DNA of 64,000 bases from a phage. This document shows, piece by piece, positions 25,251 through 35,693 of the stretch. The stretch lies in sequence record MZ956763.1, one strand, 5' to 3'. The stretch's first letter is position 1. Each line of letters starts with the position of its first letter. The notes beneath the pieces are model-generated. The model made no database searches. It was not told the DNA's origin and worked only from the letters and a program-made list of their open reading frames with translations. The translations under genes and the position numbers were made by a program.

Positions 25251-25715
25251 TTACTTTGGATATACACTGTCAAGATAAATGTCAGCTTCCATTCTACGTC
25301 TGTTTTTCAGACCGTTTGAAGTGACCTTCTTACCTTTGACTGTAACCTTGTTCCACCATTGCATAGCTTCTGCACAACCTGCCTTATTACCATCGTTGTG
25401 GCGCTTGATAAATGTAGAGTCCTGCATAGCTGTGATGCCAATGTTGTATGTTTCACTTACAAGTGCATCAAACTCGTTCTGAGAAGTTGGAACCTTGACG
25501 GATTTATTCACTGCTGCAACGAACTTTTCAACATCTGCGAGAAGATACTGTTCAGCTTGTTCAGCCGTGATTCTCATACCCATCTTAACAGGTTTACCAG
25601 CAATACGGATTGTCCCATACCCAATTGTAGGGATTCCGGCAGAATCTTCGTAAGCCTCTAGCTTAAGACCTTCAAAGAACTTAATAGCTTCTAAGCCTTT
25701 TCTTGAGAGTTGCAT
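25251..25715 (-). CDS. endolysin, T4-type lysozyme (GH24)
   Basis: FFEGLKLEAYEDSAGIPTIGYG carries the Glu/Asp/Thr catalytic triad spacing of T4 lysozyme family. Confidence 0.85.
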   Translation of the reverse strand: MQLSRKGLEAIKFFEGLKLEAYEDSAGIPTIGYGTIRIAGKPVKMGMRITAEQAEQYLLADVEKFVAAVNKSVKVPTSQNEFDALVSETYNIGITAMQDSTFIKRHNDGNKAGCAEAMQWWNKVTVKGKKVTSNGLKNRRRMEADIYLDSVYPK

Positions 25716-27100
25716 TATGCCTCCCCTGCTGGGTTAACTGTAACTGTTGCCGCATTAGATGTTACAGAGCCACCTGCACCAGTCACTACACAAGTGTAGC
25801 TTCCTGAATCAGCAGTGGTTGCACCTTCTTTGGTGTAAGTTGCAGCAGTTGCATCGAGGATGTCTTCCTCACCTTTCTTCCACTGGTAACCTGTCGCACC
25901 TGTTGCCGCAACATTCAGCGTTAAGGTCTCACCTTCAGTGATTTCTTGATTGGTTGGCTGTTGAGTGATTACTGGAAGTGCATTCACAGTAACCGTTGCT
26001 GCGTTAGATGTGACTGTTGTACCACCAGCACCAGTAACTACACAGGTGTAGGAACCAGCATCGGCAGGAACTGCGTTAGCTTTCGTGTAAGTCGCACCAG
26101 TTGCGCTAGGGATGTTCACATTGTCCTTTTTCCACTGGAAACCTTCCGCACCTGTCGCCTCAACACTCAGTGTCAAAGAGTTGCCCTCATTAACTACCTG
26201 ATTGGTTGGCTGCTTGGTAATAACTGGCAAAGCATTTACCGTGACAGTTGCAGGGCTAGAAGTAACAGAACCACCTGCACCTGTTACAACGCAAGTATAT
26301 GAACCTGCATCTGCTGGAAGCGCACCAGACTTGCTATAGGTAGCGTTTGTAGCTGAAGGAATGTCAGAGCCATCTTTCTTCCATTGGTAACCTGTTGCAC
26401 CTGTTGCAGTCACTTCCAAGTTGATGTTCCCACCCTCATTAACGGTCTGACCAGAAGGCTGCTGTGTAATCACAGGCAGTGCGTTGACAGTAACTGTTGC
26501 CGCATCTGAGGTAACACTTGTTCCAGCCTCTCCAGATACAACACAAGTGTATGAACCTGCATCAGAAGGTAATACAGACTGTTTTGTGTAGGTTGCAGAG
26601 GTGGCACTAGTGATATCCTCACCACCCTTTTTCCATTGATATCCAGTGGCATTCGTTGCAACAACACTTAGGGTAAGCGTACCACCTTCATTTACTGTTT
26701 GATTGGTTGGCTGCTGAGTGATTGCTGGTGGCTTGATAGCATCCTTCAACTTAGCATTCAACATTGAGAATGGTTTAACTCTTGCCAGCCATTCACAATA
26801 AACTGTATCAACATCTTTACCATTGATAATTGCATATTGTAAGTCCATGAAGAAGTCAGAAGTTCTCATTTGAGCACCAATGCTGTAAAGCAACTCATCA
26901 CTAAATGGAACTTTGTAGTCTGGTTTGTAGTCAAACTCCTCAACTTCTGCAATATCAGCTTCAGGCCAATACGAACTATAGGTAAGCGGTAAAATAGCCT
27001 CTTGATATGTTCTAAAATCATATCTCTTACCAGCTTTTACGTTTGCAATGAAGCCCTTCACAAACTCTTTGAAGTCTGGGTAAGTCTTTGCTTTAATCAT
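25715..27100 (-). CDS. protein with N-terminal domain plus tandem Ig-like (I-set-like) repeats
   Basis: repeated ~95-aa units NALPVITQQPTNQ..GATGYQWKK..ATYTK..ADAGSYTCVVTGAGG..TS.AATVTV; N-terminal ~120 aa paralogous to 27097..27468. Confidence 0.7.
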   Translation of the reverse strand: MIKAKTYPDFKEFVKGFIANVKAGKRYDFRTYQEAILPLTYSSYWPEADIAEVEEFDYKPDYKVPFSDELLYSIGAQMRTSDFFMDLQYAIINGKDVDTVYCEWLARVKPFSMLNAKLKDAIKPPAITQQPTNQTVNEGGTLTLSVVATNATGYQWKKGGEDITSATSATYTKQSVLPSDAGSYTCVVSGEAGTSVTSDAATVTVNALPVITQQPSGQTVNEGGNINLEVTATGATGYQWKKDGSDIPSATNATYSKSGALPADAGSYTCVVTGAGGSVTSSPATVTVNALPVITKQPTNQVVNEGNSLTLSVEATGAEGFQWKKDNVNIPSATGATYTKANAVPADAGSYTCVVTGAGGTTVTSNAATVTVNALPVITQQPTNQEITEGETLTLNVAATGATGYQWKKGEEDILDATAATYTKEGATTADSGSYTCVVTGAGGSVTSNAATVTVNPAGEA

Positions 27101-29178: not shown

Positions 29179-30594
29179 ATGAGCGAGTTATTTAAACATG
29201 CGCACCTTCATGCAGGTCGAACTGAAAATGGTGCTGTAAACCATACTTCATCAATGTCTGCTCTGGTAGACTTCTACAAAGCTGCTGGTTCAAGCCGTAG
29301 CAATGTAGAAATCTTACCAGACCTGTTCTACAAAGCTTTGCATGAGGATGTTGATGTTGCAGTTCGTATTTTACTGCATATGCGAGATGTACGAGAAGGT
29401 ATGGGTGAGCGTAAAGCCTTCAGGACTGTTTTGCTTCAAGCAATTGAAGATAAAGTTTTAGAGTCTACACAGGTTCTTCGCATTATGGATAAGATTGCAG
29501 AACTTGGTCGTTTTGATGACTTCAAAATCTTCGTAGGTACTCGCTTCGAGACAGATGCCTTCAAACATTTAGAAGCAGCATTACTAGACCCTGCAACAGC
29601 AGGTTTGGCAGCTAAGTGGTTGCCACGAGTCAAACCACGTCACAAACAGTTTGTAAAACGTTTCTGCAAGTTTGCCAACTTGAGTGAGAAAGAGTACCGC
29701 ACACTGTTGTCTGCACTATCTGATACAGTTGAGCAAAAAATCTCTGCTAATGAGTTTGGCAAGATTGACTACAGCAAGATTCCTTCACTTGCTGCTGCAC
29801 GTTACCAAAAACTGTTTAACCGTAAAGATGGAGAACGCTACAAAGCTTACATTGAGTCTTTATCAAAAGGTGAGACTAAGATTAACGCTGGTGCTGTTTA
29901 CCCATACGATGTGATTAAATCTGTCAAGCATGGTAATGCAGATGTTGCTAATGAGCAGTGGAAAGCACTACCAAACTGGATGGCAGAAGGTGAAAACATC
30001 TTGTGTATGACTGATGTTTCAAGCTCAATGTCTTGGGTGAATTTTGGCTCCATTACTGCTCTGGATATTGGTGTATCACTTGCATTGTATGTGGCAGAAC
30101 GCAATACAGGTTGCTTTAAGAATGAGTTGATGGTTTATTCAACAAACCCTCACTTCATCGAACTTAGTGGTGATTTACGAAACCGCCATCGTCAGGTGAT
30201 GCGACATGTTGAATATGGTTCAACTAACTTACAAGCAGCTTTTGACCGTATTCTTGAGACAGGTAAAAGAAACAACTTGACTCAGAAAGATATGCCAAGT
30301 AAGCTTATCATCTTCTCCGATATGGAGTTCAATCAGGTTGATGGAGCTAACGGTCGTACAAACTTTGAAGCAATTCAGAGTAAGTACAAGAAAGCTGGAT
30401 ACGAAATGCCACAACTGGTATTCTGGTACTTAGCAAACCGTAATGGTACTTGCGAAGTGTCTGTTAAGGATAACGGTGTAGCAATGGTATCTGGTTTCTC
30501 TCCAGCCACTTTAAAAGCTCTGCTTGGTGGTGAGAAGTTTGACCCAATCAGCGTAATGCTCAAAGCAGTAATGATTGACCGCTATATCTGGTAA
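29179..30594 (+). CDS. vWA-domain protein, candidate Ro60/TROVE-like (Rsr-like) RNA-binding protein
   Basis: 471 aa; MIDAS-like DxSxS (MTDVSSSMS) with downstream T and D (IIFSDMEF); ~270-aa helical N-terminal region; placed immediately upstream of tRNA/structured-RNA cluster. Confidence 0.5.
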   Translation: MSELFKHAHLHAGRTENGAVNHTSSMSALVDFYKAAGSSRSNVEILPDLFYKALHEDVDVAVRILLHMRDVREGMGERKAFRTVLLQAIEDKVLESTQVLRIMDKIAELGRFDDFKIFVGTRFETDAFKHLEAALLDPATAGLAAKWLPRVKPRHKQFVKRFCKFANLSEKEYRTLLSALSDTVEQKISANEFGKIDYSKIPSLAAARYQKLFNRKDGERYKAYIESLSKGETKINAGAVYPYDVIKSVKHGNADVANEQWKALPNWMAEGENILCMTDVSSSMSWVNFGSITALDIGVSLALYVAERNTGCFKNELMVYSTNPHFIELSGDLRNRHRQVMRHVEYGSTNLQAAFDRILETGKRNNLTQKDMPSKLIIFSDMEFNQVDGANGRTNFEAIQSKYKKAGYEMPQLVFWYLANRNGTCEVSVKDNGVAMVSGFSPATLKALLGGEKFDPISVMLKAVMIDRYIW

Positions 30595-31318: not shown

Positions 31319-31405
31319 GTGTCGTTATCCCGTAGATGGTAGCGGTGGGGACTGTAAATCCCTTGTCATTGAGACTCGGTAGGTTCGACTCCTACACGGC
31401 ACACC
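31319..31405 (+). tRNA. tRNA-Tyr (anticodon GTA), class II
   Basis: acceptor GTGTCGT/ACGGCAC, anticodon arm GGGGA-CTGTAAA-TCCCT, long variable arm, T-loop TTCGACT. Confidence 0.75.
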
Positions 31406-31411
31406 AATAAA

Positions 31412-32177: not shown

Positions 32178-32192
32178 ATTTCAATAGAGTTG

Positions 32193-32221
32193 TTGACATT
32201 GAGATGTGACTACTTTATAGT
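32193..32221 (+). promoter_or_regulatory. sigma70-like promoter TTGACA-17-TATAGT inside tRNA cluster
   Basis: consensus -35, good -10; followed by ~290 nt without tRNA. Confidence 0.55.
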
Positions 32222-32514
32222 AACTAAAATACTTCACAATATGTATAATTCAAACACCAATACATGAGCGTTAGACGTAACACAATGTGGGGAAATTTGT
32301 TGTACATATTCTGAATAGTTTTCGTTGCGTAGCGTCTATTTTGCAAATTTAAAATAAATGCAAACGACAATGTTTTTCTGGCAGTAGCTTGATAGGCTAA
32401 ACACCAGTGAGGTCTTCCAATCCCTCATCAAAGAATTTGGCGTACTCGCCCACGGTATGATTAATAAGGTGGGCATCTTTAAGGGCTTTCTAAGAGAGTC
32501 TTTAAAGATAATTA

Positions 32515-32596
32515 CGGGGCGTATCTCAGCGGTCTTCTAAACCGCCGTTAACCGAGTAAGTGGAGTATGCGGGTTCGAGTCCTGCCGCCTCGACCA
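32515..32596 (+). tRNA. atypical tRNA-like gene, possible tRNA-Arg (anticodon TCT)
   Basis: acceptor CGGGGCG/CGCCTCG + A + CCA, T-arm GCGGG-TTCGAGT-CCTGC, arm GCGGT-CTTCTAA-ACCGC; no canonical D-arm found by eye, 23-nt segment before T-arm. Confidence 0.45.
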
Positions 32597-32738
32597 ATTT
32601 AGTTAGCAGATTACTTAGACGACCTAAGCGGGTCTTCCTGTAGGGAGGTGGTCTGTATCTCATGTTTTCCAGAACATGTAAATAATCTGAGAAGGGGCTT
32701 TACAGTGTTGAGATAATACGGTAAGCTTCGAATTATAG

Positions 32739-32822
32739 TGTGGGACGATGTTAAGACTCTAAGGCATGAGCAACGGCCTCCAAAACCGTTTCAAAGGGGT
32801 TCAACTCCTCCGTCCCATGCCA
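32739..32822 (+). tRNA. atypical tRNA, possible tRNA-Trp (anticodon CCA)
   Basis: acceptor GTGGGAC/GTCCCAT + G + CCA, anticodon arm ACGGC-CTCCAAA-ACCGT, T-loop TTCAACT; D-region ~8 nt longer than canonical. Confidence 0.5.
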
Positions 32823-32835
32823 AAGTCTTATTAGG

Positions 32836-32923
32836 GGTAGGTAGCGGCTAATGGCAGCCAAACAGTCTTGAAAACTGTTGCCACTGTAGAGATACGGTGA
32901 GGGTTCGACTCCTTTACTTACCG
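32836..32923 (+). tRNA. tRNA-Ser (anticodon TGA), class II
   Basis: acceptor GGTAGGT/ACTTACC, anticodon arm ACAGT-CTTGAAA-ACTGT, 20-nt variable arm, T-arm GAGGG-TTCGACT-CCTTT. Confidence 0.7.
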
Positions 32924-33180
32924 CCTAATAAGATTTAAAGCCAAGCTTCATTCGGATGTCGCTTTGGTATCCCGCGTGTATTGTCGTACACACTGATAAA
33001 ACACCTAGTAGGTGTCACGGAGAAGAGATAATATCAAGCTCTCCAAAGGTTCTAGTCACCGGATTAAACAAGACTATGCAAAGACCTTTTTAGGTCTTTT
33101 TAGAGGGCTTCTAAGGTTATTACAGCTTGTTGTGGAACCTTGTTGCTTAGGTTCTTAGAAGTTCTCTAAAAAGATTTAAT

Positions 33181-33258
33181 GGGAGATTGACGGTAATTGG
33201 TAAACCTACCATCCTTAGAAGTTGGTGTTTGAGGGTTCGAATCCCTTGTCTCCTACCA
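33181..33258 (+). tRNA. tRNA with TAG anticodon (Leu by anticodon) but short variable arm
   Basis: acceptor GGGAGAT/GTCTCCT + A + CCA, anticodon arm CCATC-CTTAGAA-GTTGG, T-arm GAGGG-TTCGAAT-CCCTT, variable ~5 nt. Confidence 0.55.
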
Positions 33259-33265
33259 AATTAAT

Positions 33266-33341
33266 GCAGGTGTAGCAAAATGGTTATGCGGCTGACTCTT
33301 AATCAGTAAGACGATGGGTTCAATTCCCTCCACCTGTACCA
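33266..33341 (+). tRNA. tRNA-Lys (anticodon CTT)
   Basis: paralog of 31944 tRNA; acceptor GCAGGTG/CACCTGT, anticodon arm GCTGA-CTCTTAA-TCAGT. Confidence 0.65.
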
Positions 33342-33347
33342 GACATT

Positions 33348-33423
33348 GGGGTCATAGTTTATATGGTTAAAATTCGAGTTTTGCAAACTTGGGAACTGAG
33401 TTCAATTCTCAGTGACTCCACCA
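33348..33423 (+). tRNA. tRNA-Ala (anticodon TGC)
   Basis: acceptor GGGGTCA/TGACTCC, anticodon arm CGAGT-TTTGCAA-ACTTG, T-arm CTGAG-TTCAATT-CTCAG. Confidence 0.8.
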
Positions 33424-33429
33424 ATTAGT

Positions 33430-33504
33430 GCATCCATAGTTTAAACGGGAAAATTACAGTCTTCCAAACTGAGGTTGAGGGTTCGATTCCCTCTGGATGC
33501 TCCA
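33430..33504 (+). tRNA. tRNA-Gly (anticodon TCC)
   Basis: acceptor GCATCCA/TGGATGC, anticodon loop CTTCCAA, T-arm GAGGG-TTCGATT-CCCTC. Confidence 0.8.
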
Positions 33505-33511
33505 AATTAAT

Positions 33512-33587
33512 GCTCCTATCGTATAATAGGCTATTACGGTTGCCTTGTAAGCAACTTATCAGGGTTCGAATCCTTGTGGGAGCACCA
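33512..33587 (+). tRNA. tRNA-Thr (anticodon TGT)
   Basis: acceptor GCTCCTA/TGGGAGC, anticodon arm GTTGC-CTTGTAA-GCAAC, T-loop TTCGAAT. Confidence 0.8.
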
Positions 33588-33590
33588 ATT

Positions 33591-33677
33591 CAGAGGTCAA
33601 GTGAAAGACCGCTGGTGTCAACTGAAGACCGTAACAAATTCCACGGAGTTGAGTTAGCGGCACAACTTCAGACCTCT
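33591..33677 (+). ncRNA. structured element E (CAGAGGTC...GACCTCT stem, internal AAGACCG boxes)
   Basis: inverted repeat AGAGGTC/GACCTCT enclosing ~70 nt containing two copies of the GAAGACCG box. Confidence 0.35.
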
Positions 33678-33681
33678 TTCA

Positions 33682-33757
33682 CACTCGCTTAGTTTATATG
33701 GTAAAACACCACCCTTACAAGATGAAGAAAAAGGTTCAAGTCCTTTAGTGAGTACCA
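33682..33757 (+). tRNA. tRNA-like gene, possibly tRNA-Val (TAC) or pseudogene
   Basis: acceptor ACTCGCT/AGTGAGT + A + CCA, D-stem GTTT/AAAC, T-arm AAAGG-TTCAAGT-CCTTT; anticodon-region CCACC-CTTACAA-GATGA does not pair. Confidence 0.4.
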
Positions 33758-33758
33758 T

Positions 33759-33836
33759 GTTCCAGTATCCCAATTGGCAGAGGATGCAAGCTCAAACCTT
33801 GTATTAGTGACGGTTCGAATCCGTCTTGGAACACCA
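33759..33836 (+). tRNA. tRNA with CAA anticodon (Leu by anticodon) but short variable arm
   Basis: acceptor GTTCCAG/TTGGAAC + A + CCA, anticodon arm GCAAG-CTCAAAC-CTTGT, T-arm GACGG-TTCGAAT-CCGTC, variable 6 nt. Confidence 0.6.
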
Positions 33837-33855
33837 ATTTTAAGAGGCTATTTAG

Positions 33856-34413
33856 ATGAGATATTTGAAGTATGCTTCATGGATTTTCCTAGCTTTACTA
33901 GAGCCATTTGCAGCAACCCTATCAGTCATCTTAGCACCTTTCGTAGTTCCATTCTACAGTGAGAAGAAAGGACACCTACCTTTTGGATTCAGATGGATGG
34001 AGACCTATGACAACCCAATTGATGGTGATGAAGGTCACGTTAAAAGATGGGCTAAGATTAGAAAGATTGGTAAGCTGGGTGTCTACATGCAGAGAGTTGG
34101 ATGGCTCTGGAGAAACAAAGCTTATAACTTCTCTTACCATGTATTAGGAAGAGATGTAAAAGATGTTACTAAGTGGAAAGGTAATATCAACGTAAGTTCT
34201 GACCCTGAAGATAATCAGACAGGTTATCTCCTAATGTGGAACAACAATGCTTGGGGATTATTCGCTTTTATTCCGTCAATTAAAATCTTTGGTAAACAGT
34301 TTTACTGGAGAATTTATGTTGGATGGAAACTAAAAAGTGTTGTCCCAGAAGAAAGAGCATTCTCAAGGGAAAGAGTTATGTTGGCATTCTTTATTCATCC
34401 ACTGAGAAAGTAA
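33856..34413 (+). CDS. hypothetical membrane-associated protein encoded inside tRNA cluster
   Basis: ORF 185 aa, hydrophobic N-terminus (WIFLALLEPFAATLSVILAPFVVPF), Trp/Lys-rich. Confidence 0.45.
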   Translation: MRYLKYASWIFLALLEPFAATLSVILAPFVVPFYSEKKGHLPFGFRWMETYDNPIDGDEGHVKRWAKIRKIGKLGVYMQRVGWLWRNKAYNFSYHVLGRDVKDVTKWKGNINVSSDPEDNQTGYLLMWNNNAWGLFAFIPSIKIFGKQFYWRIYVGWKLKSVVPEERAFSRERVMLAFFIHPLRK

Positions 34414-34421
34414 AGATTTAA

Positions 34422-34497
34422 AGGGGATTAGTTTACAAGGTTAAAACCTCGGTCTTTGAAATCGAAGAAGTTGGTTCAATTCCAACATCCCCAGCCA
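34422..34497 (+). tRNA. tRNA-Gln (anticodon TTG)
   Basis: D-stem GTTT/AAAC, anticodon arm TCGGT-CTTTGAA-ATCGA, T-arm GTTGG-TTCAATT-CCAAC, 3' ATCCCCA-G-CCA. Confidence 0.7.
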
Positions 34498-34499
34498 AT

Positions 34500-34579
34500 G
34501 CTCCATTACTCCAATTGGCAGAGAGGCCAGACTTAAAATCTGTGTTATGTATCGGTTCGAATCCGATATGGAGTACCAA
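34500..34579 (+). tRNA. tRNA with TAA anticodon (Leu by anticodon) but short variable arm
   Basis: acceptor GCTCCAT/ATGGAGT + A + CCA, anticodon arm CCAGA-CTTAAAA-TCTGT, T-arm ATCGG-TTCGAAT-CCGAT. Confidence 0.6.
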
Positions 34580-35600: not shown

Positions 35601-35693
35601 GGAAGATTAACCCTAAAAGGTAAGGGAGCAGTTTGCTAAACTGCCAGTAGCTGAGAAATCGGTGTACCAGTTCAAGTCTGGTATCTTCCTCCA
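35601..35693 (+). tRNA. tRNA-Ser (anticodon GCT), class II
   Basis: acceptor GGAAGAT/ATCTTCC + T + CCA, anticodon arm GCAGT-TTGCTAA-ACTGC, 21-nt variable arm, T-arm ACCAG-TTCAAGT-CTGGT. Confidence 0.8.

What the first reader, a model, noticed from the sequence alone, without database searches (positions are those of the whole stretch)
33181..34579. Three tRNAs with leucine anticodons (TAG, CAA, TAA) but class-I-sized variable arms
Hand folding of the genes at 33181-33258, 33759-33836 and 34500-34579 gives good acceptor, anticodon and T arms with anticodons that read Leu codons, yet variable regions of only 5-7 nt and total lengths of 78-80 nt. The tRNA-Tyr and tRNA-Ser genes in the same array have long variable arms. 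Bacterial tRNA-Leu is normally class II. If the folds are right, these tRNAs either rely on an unusual recognition mode or could be charged by another synthetase, which would alter decoding during infection.
Basis: partly seen in the sequence, partly recalled or inferred. Interest (0 to 1): 0.55.

Follow-up and report, generated by a model that had tools for sequence, protein, structure and literature searches.

The report
Short-arm leucine tRNAs of phages
Three leucine tRNA genes in this Felix O1-type phage really do lack the long extra arm that bacterial leucine tRNAs normally carry, but they keep every other feature the host's leucine-charging enzyme reads, so they are most likely ordinary leucine tRNAs of a trimmed design that turns out to be common in phages.

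Summary
ARAGORN and Rfam find tRNA-Leu(UAG), (CAA) and (UAA) at 33181-33258, 33759-33836 and 34500-34578. Their variable loops are 5, 6 and 7 nt, while Tyr and both Ser tRNAs in the same array keep long arms. The window is a Felixounavirus, and these genes are annotated tRNA-Leu in hundreds of records.

Apart from the arm, the three tRNAs match E. coli and T4 tRNALeu at each E. coli LeuRS identity position: U8-A14, A15-U48, G18G19, A20a, U54-A58 and A73. Published work reports the arm as dispensable for that enzyme. The phage's TTA, TTG and CTA codons sit at conserved Leu positions.

The design is widespread. It occurs in T5/BF23, rV5-like, Erwinia, Aeromonas, Xanthomonas and Lactobacillus phages, with strong covariation support. 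In samples found with one pattern, 45 of 180 viral tRNA-Leu genes were short-armed against 6 of 127 cellular ones.

Most likely these are host-charged leucine tRNAs supplying codons the phage uses heavily. Why the arm was lost (tolerated deletion or escape from arm-targeting defences) is open. No charging data exist for them. I found no prior description of the phage pattern in the held literature. Moderate interest.

The parts
33181..33258 (+). tRNA-Leu(UAG), 78 nt including CCA. Anticodon at 33216-33218, 5-nt variable loop TGTTT at 33226-33230, A73 at 33255. Irregular D region: one extra nucleotide (GTAATTGGTAAA) and a C11.C24 mismatch, or a shifted GGT/ACC stem. U30.U40 mismatch in the anticodon stem.
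   Evidence: ARAGORN; Rfam tRNA 40.0 bits; segment alignment; about 84% identical to the T5-like tRNA-Leu(UAG)
33759..33836 (+). tRNA-Leu(CAA), 78 nt including CCA. Anticodon at 33793-33795, 6-nt variable loop ATTAGT at 33803-33808, A73 at 33833. 3-bp D stem TCC/GGA with the Leu-type D loop CAATTGGCAGA.
   Evidence: ARAGORN; Rfam tRNA 44.0 bits; the minimum-energy fold recovers acceptor, anticodon and T arms
34500..34578 (+). tRNA-Leu(UAA), 79 nt including CCA. Anticodon at 34534-34536, 7-nt variable loop GTTATGT at 34544-34550, A73 at 34575. G1.U72 as in E. coli leuZ. D loop CAATTGGCAGA.
   Evidence: ARAGORN; Rfam tRNA 47.5 bits
30760..35773 (+). The tRNA array that holds the three Leu genes: 24 tRNAs by ARAGORN, all on the + strand and nearly all with encoded CCA.
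   Evidence: syntenic with Felix O1, Mushroom and Bas63
31319..31406 (+). tRNA-Tyr(GUA), 88 nt with a long variable arm. Internal class-II comparator.
32836..32925 (+). tRNA-Ser(UGA), 90 nt with a long variable arm. Internal class-II comparator.
35601..35693 (+). tRNA-Ser(GCU), 93 nt with a long variable arm. Internal class-II comparator.

Best explanation
These are genuine leucine tRNAs built on the enterobacterial tRNALeu body with the long variable arm reduced to a 5-7 nt loop.

Shown: they fold as cloverleaves under strong comparative support. Outside the arm they keep the class-II tRNALeu architecture (U8, a 3-bp D stem, an 11-nt D loop N-A14-A15-U-Y-G18-G19-Y-A20a-K-A, U48, T loop UUCRANU, A73). 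The design recurs in many unrelated phage groups, while Ser and Tyr tRNAs keep their arms. The phage uses the cognate codons at Leu-conserved positions.

Inferred: the host LeuRS charges them with leucine. In E. coli that enzyme reads A73 and the D/T-loop hinge and elbow, not the arm or the anticodon. The tRNAs then decode UUA/UUG (UAA), UUG (CAA) and CUA/CUG (UAG). TTA, TTG and CTA together make up 53% of this AT-rich phage's Leu codons, and they are minor codons in the host.

Inferred: the arm could be lost only from Leu because SerRS needs it (per the identity review) and, from general knowledge rather than anything I checked here, TyrRS contacts it, whereas LeuRS does not need it. So deletion in a compact phage genome is tolerated for Leu alone.
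For: - ARAGORN and Rfam call all three genes tRNAs.
- A segment alignment with E. coli leuZ/leuW/leuX, T4 tRNALeu and other phage Leu tRNAs shows position-by-position identity of design except for the arm.
- The Leu-type D-loop motif is present in 18 of 20 Leu tRNAs but only 3 of 169 non-Leu tRNAs from the same phages. All have U48, and all have A73 after correcting two ARAGORN registers.
- Covariation across 17 short-arm Leu genes: 97.4% paired, 18 of 20 pairs with double changes, 0 of 500 shuffles as good.
- The published E. coli identity set is A73, A14, A15-U48, G18G19, A20a and U54-A58. Arm sequence and fold are uncorrelated with leucylation, and variants lacking both the arm and the anticodon arm are still charged (review PMC9976931; PMC6614811 introduction).
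- tRNAscan isotype models rank Leu first for all three orthologues in phage Sf14: 67.4, 49.1 and 60.2 (PMC12482277).
- Codon-meaning test: TTA, TTG and CTA columns are Leu in distant homologues at 0.52, 0.41 and 0.51, against 0.43-0.68 for the other Leu codons and 0.05 background.
- Codon usage: TTA 28.5%, TTG 13.4% and CTA 11.1% of Leu codons, at 38.9% GC.
- Only Leu is short. In the IMG/VR sample Ser was 59 of 59 long and Tyr 21 of 23 long, and the same holds in every named phage examined.
- A review table lists tRNALeu among T5-coded tRNAs (PMC4810235). The 30-kb T5-like stretch holding the T5 tRNA region has only two Leu genes, both 77 nt.
Against: - There are no charging or expression data for these tRNAs.
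- E. coli LeuRS failed to charge the natural type-I tRNALeu(CAA) of Streptomyces coelicolor in vitro and is described there as charging only type-II tRNALeu. The same authors state that the EcLeuRS leucine-specific domain favours tRNAs with a large variable loop (PMC6614811). That Streptomyces tRNA has C48 rather than U48, which may explain the failure, but this is my inference.
- Leu(UAG) has an irregular D region and a U30.U40 mismatch.
- Minimum-energy folds of the UAG and UAA tRNAs are not cloverleaves.
- The classic T5 aminoacylation papers could not be read, so that support is second-hand.
Confidence: 0.75

Rival explanations
1. Arm loss is an anti-defence adaptation. The tRNAs are still leucine tRNAs, but phages shed the long arm so that host defence enzymes which recognise or cut class-II tRNAs through that arm cannot disable the phage's own leucine decoding.
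For: [quoted passage not shown]
- The authors of the AbiEii preprint infer, from the size of the modified tRNAs, that this abortive-infection nucleotidyltransferase prefers class-II tRNAs with long arms, like MenT3 (bioRxiv 10.64898/2026.01.19.700257).
- Short-arm Leu is strongly enriched in viral over cellular DNA: 45 of 180 against 6 of 127, Fisher p = 8e-7. It is diverse (32 clusters at about 85% identity), which fits recurrent selection.
Against: - I found no report of a bacterial defence that targets the tRNALeu arm.
- Many phages, including T4, Seunavirus and Xanthomonas X1, keep long-arm Leu tRNAs, sometimes beside short ones.
- Enrichment is equally expected from neutral streamlining, because only the Leu arm is dispensable for charging.
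Confidence: 0.2
2. One reading: the short-arm tRNAs are charged by a synthetase other than LeuRS, or ambiguously, so that UUR and CUA codons are decoded differently during infection.
For: - Class-I shape removes one feature that separates tRNALeu from class-I tRNAs.
- A35 and A36 of the UAA and CAA anticodons are shared with tRNAPhe(GAA), which also has A73.
- EcLeuRS did not charge one natural type-I tRNALeu.
Against: - The full E. coli Leu identity set is conserved in all 17 aligned short-arm genes and in 43-44 of 45 sampled viral ones.
- There is no G3.U70 and no G-1, and position 34 is U or C, not the G34 required by PheRS (with the identity rules in PMC9976931).
- Leu is the top isotype model for the Sf14 orthologues.
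- TTA, TTG and CTA codons sit at Leu-conserved columns as often as the other Leu codons.
- Host leuZ, leuX and leuW read the same codons, so any other charging would give harmful ambiguity at 53% of the phage's Leu codons.
Confidence: 0.03
3. They are decaying pseudo-tRNAs, or tRNA-shaped RNAs with a non-translational role such as decoys or sponges for host tRNA-binding defence proteins, rather than working adaptors.
For: - tRNAscan-based annotation in some relatives labels homologues Pseudo or Undet: phiR2-01 'tRNA-Pseudo-TAG', Akh-2 'Pseudo-CAA', phiEa104 'Undet'.
- Their Rfam scores are the lowest among the class-I-sized tRNAs of the array.
- Leu(UAG) has stem mismatches.
Against: - Pervasive compensatory changes and invariant functional positions across 8 phage groups show selection on a complete tRNA fold, including the anticodon stem-loop, A73 and an encoded CCA.
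- The two Leu(UAG) alleles within Felixounavirus differ by a complete compensatory swap of the anticodon stem.
- The anticodons match codons the phage uses heavily.
- A decoy role cannot be excluded as an additional function.
Confidence: 0.05

Closest known systems
E. coli class-II tRNALeu isoacceptors leuZ (UAA), leuX (CAA) and leuW (UAG)
   Same: Same anticodons. Same U8, 3-bp D stem, 11-nt D loop (N-A-A-U-Y-G-G-U-A-G-A), U48, T loop and A73. leuZ also shares G1.U72 with the phage UAA tRNA.
   Different: The host genes are 85-87 nt with a 13-15 nt stem-loop variable arm, whereas the phage genes have 5-7 unpaired nucleotides. The stems differ in sequence, and no E. coli genome holds a blastn-detectable relative.
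Phage T5 / BF23 tRNALeu (Tequintavirus), and the homologous genes of Seunavirus, Kolesnikvirus, Aeromonas Akh-2, Xanthomonas X1 and Lactobacillus LpeD
   Same: The same short-arm design: a 5-nt variable loop ending in U48, the Leu D loop and A73. The T5-like tRNALeu(UAG) is about 84% identical to the window's, including the U30.U40 mismatch.
   Different: Most relatives have exactly 5 nt, whereas the window's CAA and UAA genes have 6 and 7. The window's UAG gene carries an extra D-region nucleotide.
Phage T4 tRNALeu(UAA)
   Same: A phage-encoded tRNA of the same host with the same anticodon as the window's third gene, the same D-loop type (AAATTGGTAAA), U48 and A73.
   Different: T4's is a classical class-II tRNA, 87 nt with a 15-nt arm.
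Type-I tRNALeu(CAA) of Streptomyces coelicolor (Fan et al. 2019, PMC6614811)
   Same: A natural tRNALeu in a bacterial setting with a 5-nt variable loop, coexisting with type-II tRNALeu and a single LeuRS.
   Different: Its variable loop is ACAGC (C48, not U48). Its LeuRS does not use A73 and needs a special leucine-specific domain. E. coli LeuRS does not charge it. The phage tRNAs keep the E. coli identity set.
Human mitochondrial tRNALeu(UUR)
   Same: Short variable loop, with A73 and A14 as identity elements.
   Different: An organellar tRNA charged by a dedicated mitochondrial LeuRS. It has a weak, partly unfolded structure and is not charged by bacterial-type enzymes in cross tests.
Engineered minimal E. 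coli tRNALeu lacking the variable arm (Larkin et al. 2002; Asahara 1993/1998; Tocchini-Valentini 2000)
   Same: These show that EcLeuRS charges tRNALeu without its long arm provided A73 and the D/T-loop tertiary contacts are intact. That is the configuration seen here (as summarised in PMC9976931).
   Different: Laboratory constructs, whereas the phage genes are natural and evolutionarily maintained. The primary papers were not readable here.

Membership tests
tRNA (general cloverleaf) | Acceptor, D, anticodon and T arms, with a 7-nt anticodon loop (U33, purine 37) and T loop UUCRANY | tested here: met
   ARAGORN. Rfam RF00005 at 40-47.5 bits against a threshold of 29. Covariation: 97.4% paired, 18 of 20 pairs with double changes.
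Leucine tRNA as recognised by E. coli-type LeuRS | Discriminator A73 | tested here: met
   A at 33255, 33833 and 34575. A73 in 17 of 17 aligned short-arm genes and 43 of 45 sampled viral ones.
Leucine tRNA as recognised by E. coli-type LeuRS | U8-A14 and the A15-U48 Levitt pair | tested here: met
   U8, A14, A15 and U48 are present in all three genes and invariant in alignment A1. That they pair in three dimensions is inferred.
Leucine tRNA as recognised by E. coli-type LeuRS | G18G19 at the Leu-specific place in an 11-nt D loop on a 3-bp D stem, with A20a | tested here: met
   CAATTGGCAGA in the CAA and UAA genes is identical in layout to E. coli and T4. The motif is in 18 of 20 Leu against 3 of 169 non-Leu tRNAs. 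The UAG gene has one extra nucleotide and a C11.C24 mismatch, so for that gene the feature is only approximately met.
Leucine tRNA as recognised by E. coli-type LeuRS | T-loop partners for the elbow (U54-A58, U55, C56) | tested here: met
   TTCGAAT in all three genes.
Leucine tRNA as recognised by E. coli-type LeuRS | Actual aminoacylation with leucine | not testable with these tools
   Indirect evidence only: the identity set, the Leu-top isotype scores for the Sf14 orthologues, the codon-meaning test, and a review table listing tRNALeu among T5-coded tRNAs.
Class II (type II) tRNA | Long variable arm (more than 10 nt, usually a stem-loop) | tested here: not met
   Variable regions are 5, 6 and 7 nt with no stem. 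Tyr and Ser in the same array have long variable regions: 15-21 nt by ARAGORN's count, which starts one or more positions later than the canonical count used for the Leu genes.
Class II (type II) tRNA | Class-II style D arm (3-bp stem, unpaired 13:22, enlarged loop) | tested here: met
   The phage tRNAs are therefore hybrids: a class-II core with a class-I variable loop.
Type-I tRNALeu (mitochondrial / Streptomyces kind) | Leu anticodon with a short (about 5 nt) variable loop | tested here: met
   5 nt in the UAG gene, 6 and 7 nt in the CAA and UAA genes, and 5 nt in most phage relatives.
Type-I tRNALeu (mitochondrial / Streptomyces kind) | Charged by a LeuRS specially adapted to type-I substrates (mitochondrial LeuRS; the Streptomyces leucine-specific domain) | not tested
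   ARAGORN and a Pfam scan of ten of the window's ORFs found no synthetase. The window was not scanned exhaustively. The host enzyme is the ordinary enterobacterial LeuRS.

The most novel reading that the evidence does not exclude
Phages have repeatedly stripped the long variable arm from their own leucine tRNAs as a counter-defence. Host immune nucleases or nucleotidyltransferases that pick out class-II tRNAs by that arm can then shut down host tRNALeu but not the phage's replacement set. Leu would be the one class-II family where this escape is possible, because LeuRS alone does not need the arm.
Probability: 0.2. Interest if true: 0.7.

Novelty: new member of a known kind. Interest (0 to 1): 0.4.

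Why it matters
The genes themselves are ordinary and already annotated. What seems under-appreciated is the pattern.

- A trimmed tRNALeu with an intact E. coli LeuRS identity set is a recurrent phage design. It made up about a quarter of sampled viral tRNALeu genes and a third of those in tRNA-rich arrays, but was rare in cellular genomes. The one biochemical paper on natural bacterial type-I tRNALeu calls the phenomenon rare and states that E. coli LeuRS charges only type II.
- If these tRNAs are confirmed as charged, they are natural evidence that the long arm is dispensable in vivo for enterobacterial leucylation.
- They sharpen the question of why cells keep the arm.
- They offer compact natural scaffolds for tRNA engineering.
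- They suggest a testable link to defences that target tRNA variable arms.
- Practically, annotation pipelines sometimes label such genes Pseudo or Undet, and that should be corrected.

Tried and rejected
- **Recoding or mischarging:** rejected. See the identity-set analysis and the codon-meaning test.
- **Pseudogenes:** rejected on covariation and conservation.
- **Single-sequence thermodynamic folding:** uninformative for two of the three genes and not used as evidence.
- **Classic T5 tRNA papers (PMIDs 6987232 and 1245488) and Larkin 2002 (PMC115294):** not held, so those points rest on reviews.
- **Supplementary data of the T5-infection RNA study, looking for expression of T5 tRNALeu:** none held.
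- **Azam 2024 and van den Berg 2023, read for Leu or variable-arm content:** nothing relevant.
- **Literature searches for a prior description of phage short-arm tRNALeu:** none found. Older subscription literature is not covered.
- **Search of 5,426 E. coli genomes for a similar gene:** no match.
- **The two collection scans:** both stopped at their 120-locus limit and used one Leu-D-loop-specific pattern, so the 25% and 5% figures are sample estimates, not a census.
- **AN17P8 Leu(UAG) variant:** it did not fit my segment parser and was left out of the alignment.
Full report
**What is there.** ARAGORN finds 24 tRNA genes on the + strand between 30760 and 35773. Three carry leucine anticodons: tag at 33181-33258, caa at 33759-33836 and taa at 34500-34578. 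They are 78, 78 and 79 nt long, including an encoded CCA. In canonical numbering their variable regions are TGTTT (5 nt), ATTAGT (6 nt) and GTTATGT (7 nt). The tRNA-Tyr (88 nt) and both tRNA-Ser genes (90 and 93 nt) in the same array have long arms. Rfam's general tRNA model scores the three Leu genes at 40.0, 44.0 and 47.5 bits against a threshold of 29, the lowest of the class-I-sized genes in the array but clearly positive.

**Where the window comes from.** The tRNA region is 97.6% identical to Salmonella phage Mushroom and 96.7% identical to Felix O1. In all, 371 phage records match, and they annotate three tRNA-Leu genes (feature tables). The genes themselves are therefore known and routinely annotated. 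None of the papers I could search comments on their missing arm. That includes a 2025 computational study of the orthologous tRNA set of phage Sf14, which never uses the word 'variable'.

**Are they really leucine tRNAs?** I aligned them segment by segment with other Leu tRNAs: E. coli leuZ, leuW and leuX (85-87 nt), T4 tRNALeu (87 nt), and the Leu tRNAs of seven other phage groups. Outside the variable region the design is the same throughout:
- U8 and a 3-bp D stem;
- an 11-nt D loop reading N-A14-A15-U-Y-G18-G19-Y-A20a-K-A;
- U48 as the last variable nucleotide;
- a UUCRANU T loop, and A73.

The D-loop motif occurs in 18 of 20 Leu tRNAs but only 3 of 169 non-Leu tRNAs from the same phages. 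According to the 2023 identity review and the introduction of Fan et al. 2019, the positions E. coli LeuRS uses are A73, A14, the A15-U48 pair, G18G19, A20a and the D/T-loop contacts. [quoted passage not shown] For the Sf14 orthologues, which are at least 98.7% identical by my estimate from closely related phages, tRNAscan isotype models rank Leu first for all three. I see no determinant of another synthetase: no G3.U70, no G-1, and U or C rather than G at position 34. That last judgement is inference from the published identity rules.

**Is the fold real?** Seventeen short-arm Leu genes from eight phage groups align in 79 columns. On the cloverleaf with a short variable loop, 97.4% of cells pair against 37-48% when partners are slid. 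Eighteen of 20 pairs show changes on both sides, and none of 500 shuffles reaches the observed values. Within Felixounavirus the Leu(UAG) gene exists as two alleles whose anticodon stems are completely and compensatorily different: CCATC/GTTGG here and TCTCG/CGAGA in Felix O1. Single-sequence energy minimisation is weak evidence. Only the CAA gene recovers three arms, and z-scores are -0.8 to -2.2. I rely on the comparative result.

**Does decoding change?** I took two phage proteins with many distant homologues, NadV and the large terminase. I then asked what residue homologues of at most about 50% identity carry at each phage Leu codon.

| Codon group | Mean Leu fraction in homologues |
|---|---|
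| TTA, TTG, CTA | 0.52, 0.41, 0.51 |
| CTG, CTT, CTC | 0.68, 0.44, 0.43 |
| Non-Leu codons (background) | 0.05 |

The phage therefore expects leucine at the codons these tRNAs read. TTA, TTG and CTA make up 53% of Leu codons in the window's long ORFs, at 38.9% GC. From my own knowledge they are minor codons in E. coli. This fits the usual supply role of phage tRNAs.

**How general is the design?** Sensitive DNA searches with each gene reached beyond the Felix O1 group. ARAGORN on the fetched regions gave:
- T5-like phages: two Leu genes, both 77 nt;
- Seunavirus (rV5-like): one short and one long;
- Kolesnikvirus phiEa104: three short;
- Aeromonas phage Akh-2: three short;
- Xanthomonas phage X1: one short and two long;
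- Lactobacillus phage LpeD: three short;
- Ser and Tyr long in every case.

I then ran one pattern over two collections. It specifies the Leu-type D loop, an NAR anticodon and the T loop, and allows variable regions of 4-24 nt. Both scans stopped at 120 loci, so these are samples.
- **Viral contigs:** 180 tRNA-Leu genes fell into two modes, with 45 at 5-7 nt and 135 at 9-25 nt. The 45 are 44 distinct sequences in 32 clusters at about 85% identity. U48 is present in 44, A73 in 43 and an encoded CCA in 42. They occur in 25 of 64 loci holding at least five tRNAs, but in only 4 of 56 poorer loci.
- **Cellular genomes:** 6 of 127 were short (Fisher p = 8e-7). One lacks the Leu D loop. Two are single genes in Actinobacteria (Gordonia, Herbiconiux). 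The other three form a cluster on a Planctomycetota MAG contig that may be viral.
- **E. coli:** none of 5,426 complete genomes has a similar gene.

**Mechanism.** The best-supported reading is that host LeuRS charges these tRNAs with leucine through A73 and the hinge and elbow, and that they serve ordinary translation of phage mRNAs. The loss of the arm from Leu alone follows from what each synthetase needs. According to the identity review, SerRS uses the size of the arm as its main identity element, and LeuRS ignores it. From general knowledge, bacterial TyrRS contacts the arm. I consider tolerated deletion in compact phage genomes the default explanation.

An adaptive alternative has real precedent. 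Septu and retron-Eco7 PtuAB cut the variable loop of host tRNATyr, and T5's tRNATyr escapes through a different variable loop. The authors of the AbiEii preprint infer, from the size of the modified tRNAs, that this abortive-infection toxin prefers long-arm tRNAs. No defence aimed at the tRNALeu arm has been reported, so I give this about 0.2.

**Evidence against, and caveats.**
- There are no charging data for these tRNAs.
- Fan et al. found that E. coli LeuRS does not charge the Streptomyces type-I tRNALeu(CAA). They also state that its leucine-specific domain favours large variable loops. That tRNA ends its variable loop in C48, so it lacks the A15-U48 element the phage tRNAs keep. This may reconcile the results, but it is my inference.
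- The UAG gene has an extra nucleotide in the D region, a C11.C24 mismatch (ARAGORN prefers a shifted GGT/ACC stem) and a U30.U40 mismatch that it shares with its T5-like and Seunavirus homologues.
- A review table lists tRNALeu among T5-coded tRNAs and cites the 1976 and 1980 JBC papers. I could not read those papers. That they identified the tRNAs by aminoacylation is my recollection.

**Comparison with what is known, and novelty.** Short-arm (type-I) tRNALeu is a known kind, found in animal mitochondria and in one Streptomyces isoacceptor studied biochemically in 2019. The phage genes differ from both because they retain the enterobacterial identity set on a class-II style D arm, making them hybrids. 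Six literature searches found no description of the phage pattern, but older subscription literature is outside the library. I file the finding as a new member of a known kind. The radical reading (altered decoding) is not supported. The general pattern is of moderate interest.

**Side observation.** In the 660-nt gap between tRNA-Ile and tRNA-Ser, where Bas63 has a canonical tRNA-Arg(UCU), the window carries an 82-nt tRNA-like gene at 32515-32596. ARAGORN misses it, and Rfam sees it only as a sub-threshold tmRNA-like hit.
- It has a 7-bp acceptor stem with G3.U70, a discriminator, CCA, a normal T arm, an anticodon-type stem-loop CUUCUAA and a small extra hairpin, but no D arm.
- It is present in 263 phage records from at least five unrelated groups, including jumbo phages, and is almost never annotated.
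- Six divergent copies pair at 100% of cells, with six double-compensated pairs and invariant single-stranded segments.

I did not pursue its function.

Noticed in passing
window 32515-32596 (+); also L254 from offset 1791, L256-L260 around positions 400-482: An unannotated 82-nt tRNA-like gene that ARAGORN misses. It has an acceptor stem with G3.U70 plus a discriminator and CCA, a normal T arm, an anticodon-type hairpin with loop CUUCUAA (UCU, Arg), a small extra hairpin and no D arm. It sits where Bas63 has a canonical tRNA-Arg(UCU). It is conserved at 80-100% identity in 263 phage records from Felixounavirus, Klebsiella T5-like phages, Justusliebigvirus, Mydovirus and jumbo Asteriusvirus-type phages. 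Six divergent copies pair at 100% with six double-compensated pairs. It could be a D-arm-less tRNAArg, an Ala-accepting tRNA-like RNA or a decoy. Function unknown, and the literature was not searched.
   Followed up: partly
window 33181-33258 vs L011 3637-3714 (Felix O1), L001 14997-15073 (T5-like), L002 8001-8077 (Seunavirus): Felixounaviruses carry two alleles of tRNA-Leu(UAG): about 71 records at 99% identity or more to the window and about 261 at 80-90%. Their anticodon stems are wholly different but compensatory. The window allele shares its stem type and a U30.U40 mismatch with the T5-like and Seunavirus genes, which suggests exchange of tRNA genes between phage families.
   Followed up: partly
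alignment A1 columns 1 and 78; window 34500 and 34574: G1.U72 closes the acceptor stem in 12 of 17 short-arm phage Leu tRNAs. Among the three E. coli isoacceptors examined here (leuZ, leuW, leuX), only leuZ (UAA) has it. In the IMG/VR sample it is present in 16 of 45 short and 34 of 135 long Leu genes. Significance unknown.
   Followed up: no
L163 491-566 (Gordonia), L204 2732-2806 (Herbiconiux), L221 3550-3794 (Planctomycetota MAG contig): Short-arm tRNALeu genes of the same CAATTGGCAGA / 5-nt-loop design occur in cellular assemblies. There are single UAA genes in two Actinobacteria, and a tight cluster of three (CAG, UAA, GAG) plus one more tRNA on a MAG contig that may be a prophage or a mis-binned phage.
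   Followed up: no
L004 6778-6854 (phiEa104), L005 3046-3122 (Akh-2), H58 (Yersinia phage phiR2-01), L254 (Mushroom): tRNAscan-based annotation labels several of these short-arm Leu genes 'Undet' or 'Pseudo'. It also marks the array's Tyr and His genes as pseudo in Mushroom and Felix O1. The T5-like tRNA-Leu(UAA) at L001 10338-10414 is not annotated at all.
   Followed up: no
window 33837-33856 vs L011 4830-4905; window 32178-32835 vs L011 1692-3549: Compared with Felix O1, the window lacks the tRNA-Arg that follows tRNA-Leu(CAA) and lacks the HNH homing-endonuclease ORFs interspersed in the Felix O1 array. The array is a hotspot of gene gain and loss.
   Followed up: no
IMG/VR loci L014-L133: Two of 23 tRNA-Tyr genes in the viral sample were scored as short-armed by my parser, against 0 of 59 tRNA-Ser. 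I did not inspect them, and they could be ARAGORN mis-folds.
   Followed up: no
window 29179-30594 (+), 33856-34413 (+), 25715-27100 (-): The ORF immediately upstream of the array carries DUF2828 and DUF7788 and is called 'RNA-binding protein' in the Felix O1 record. The ORF inside the array, between Leu(CAA) and Gln, is DUF7338 and is annotated 'holin' in Mushroom. A 461-aa ORF on the opposite strand consists of four immunoglobulin-like domains.
   Followed up: no
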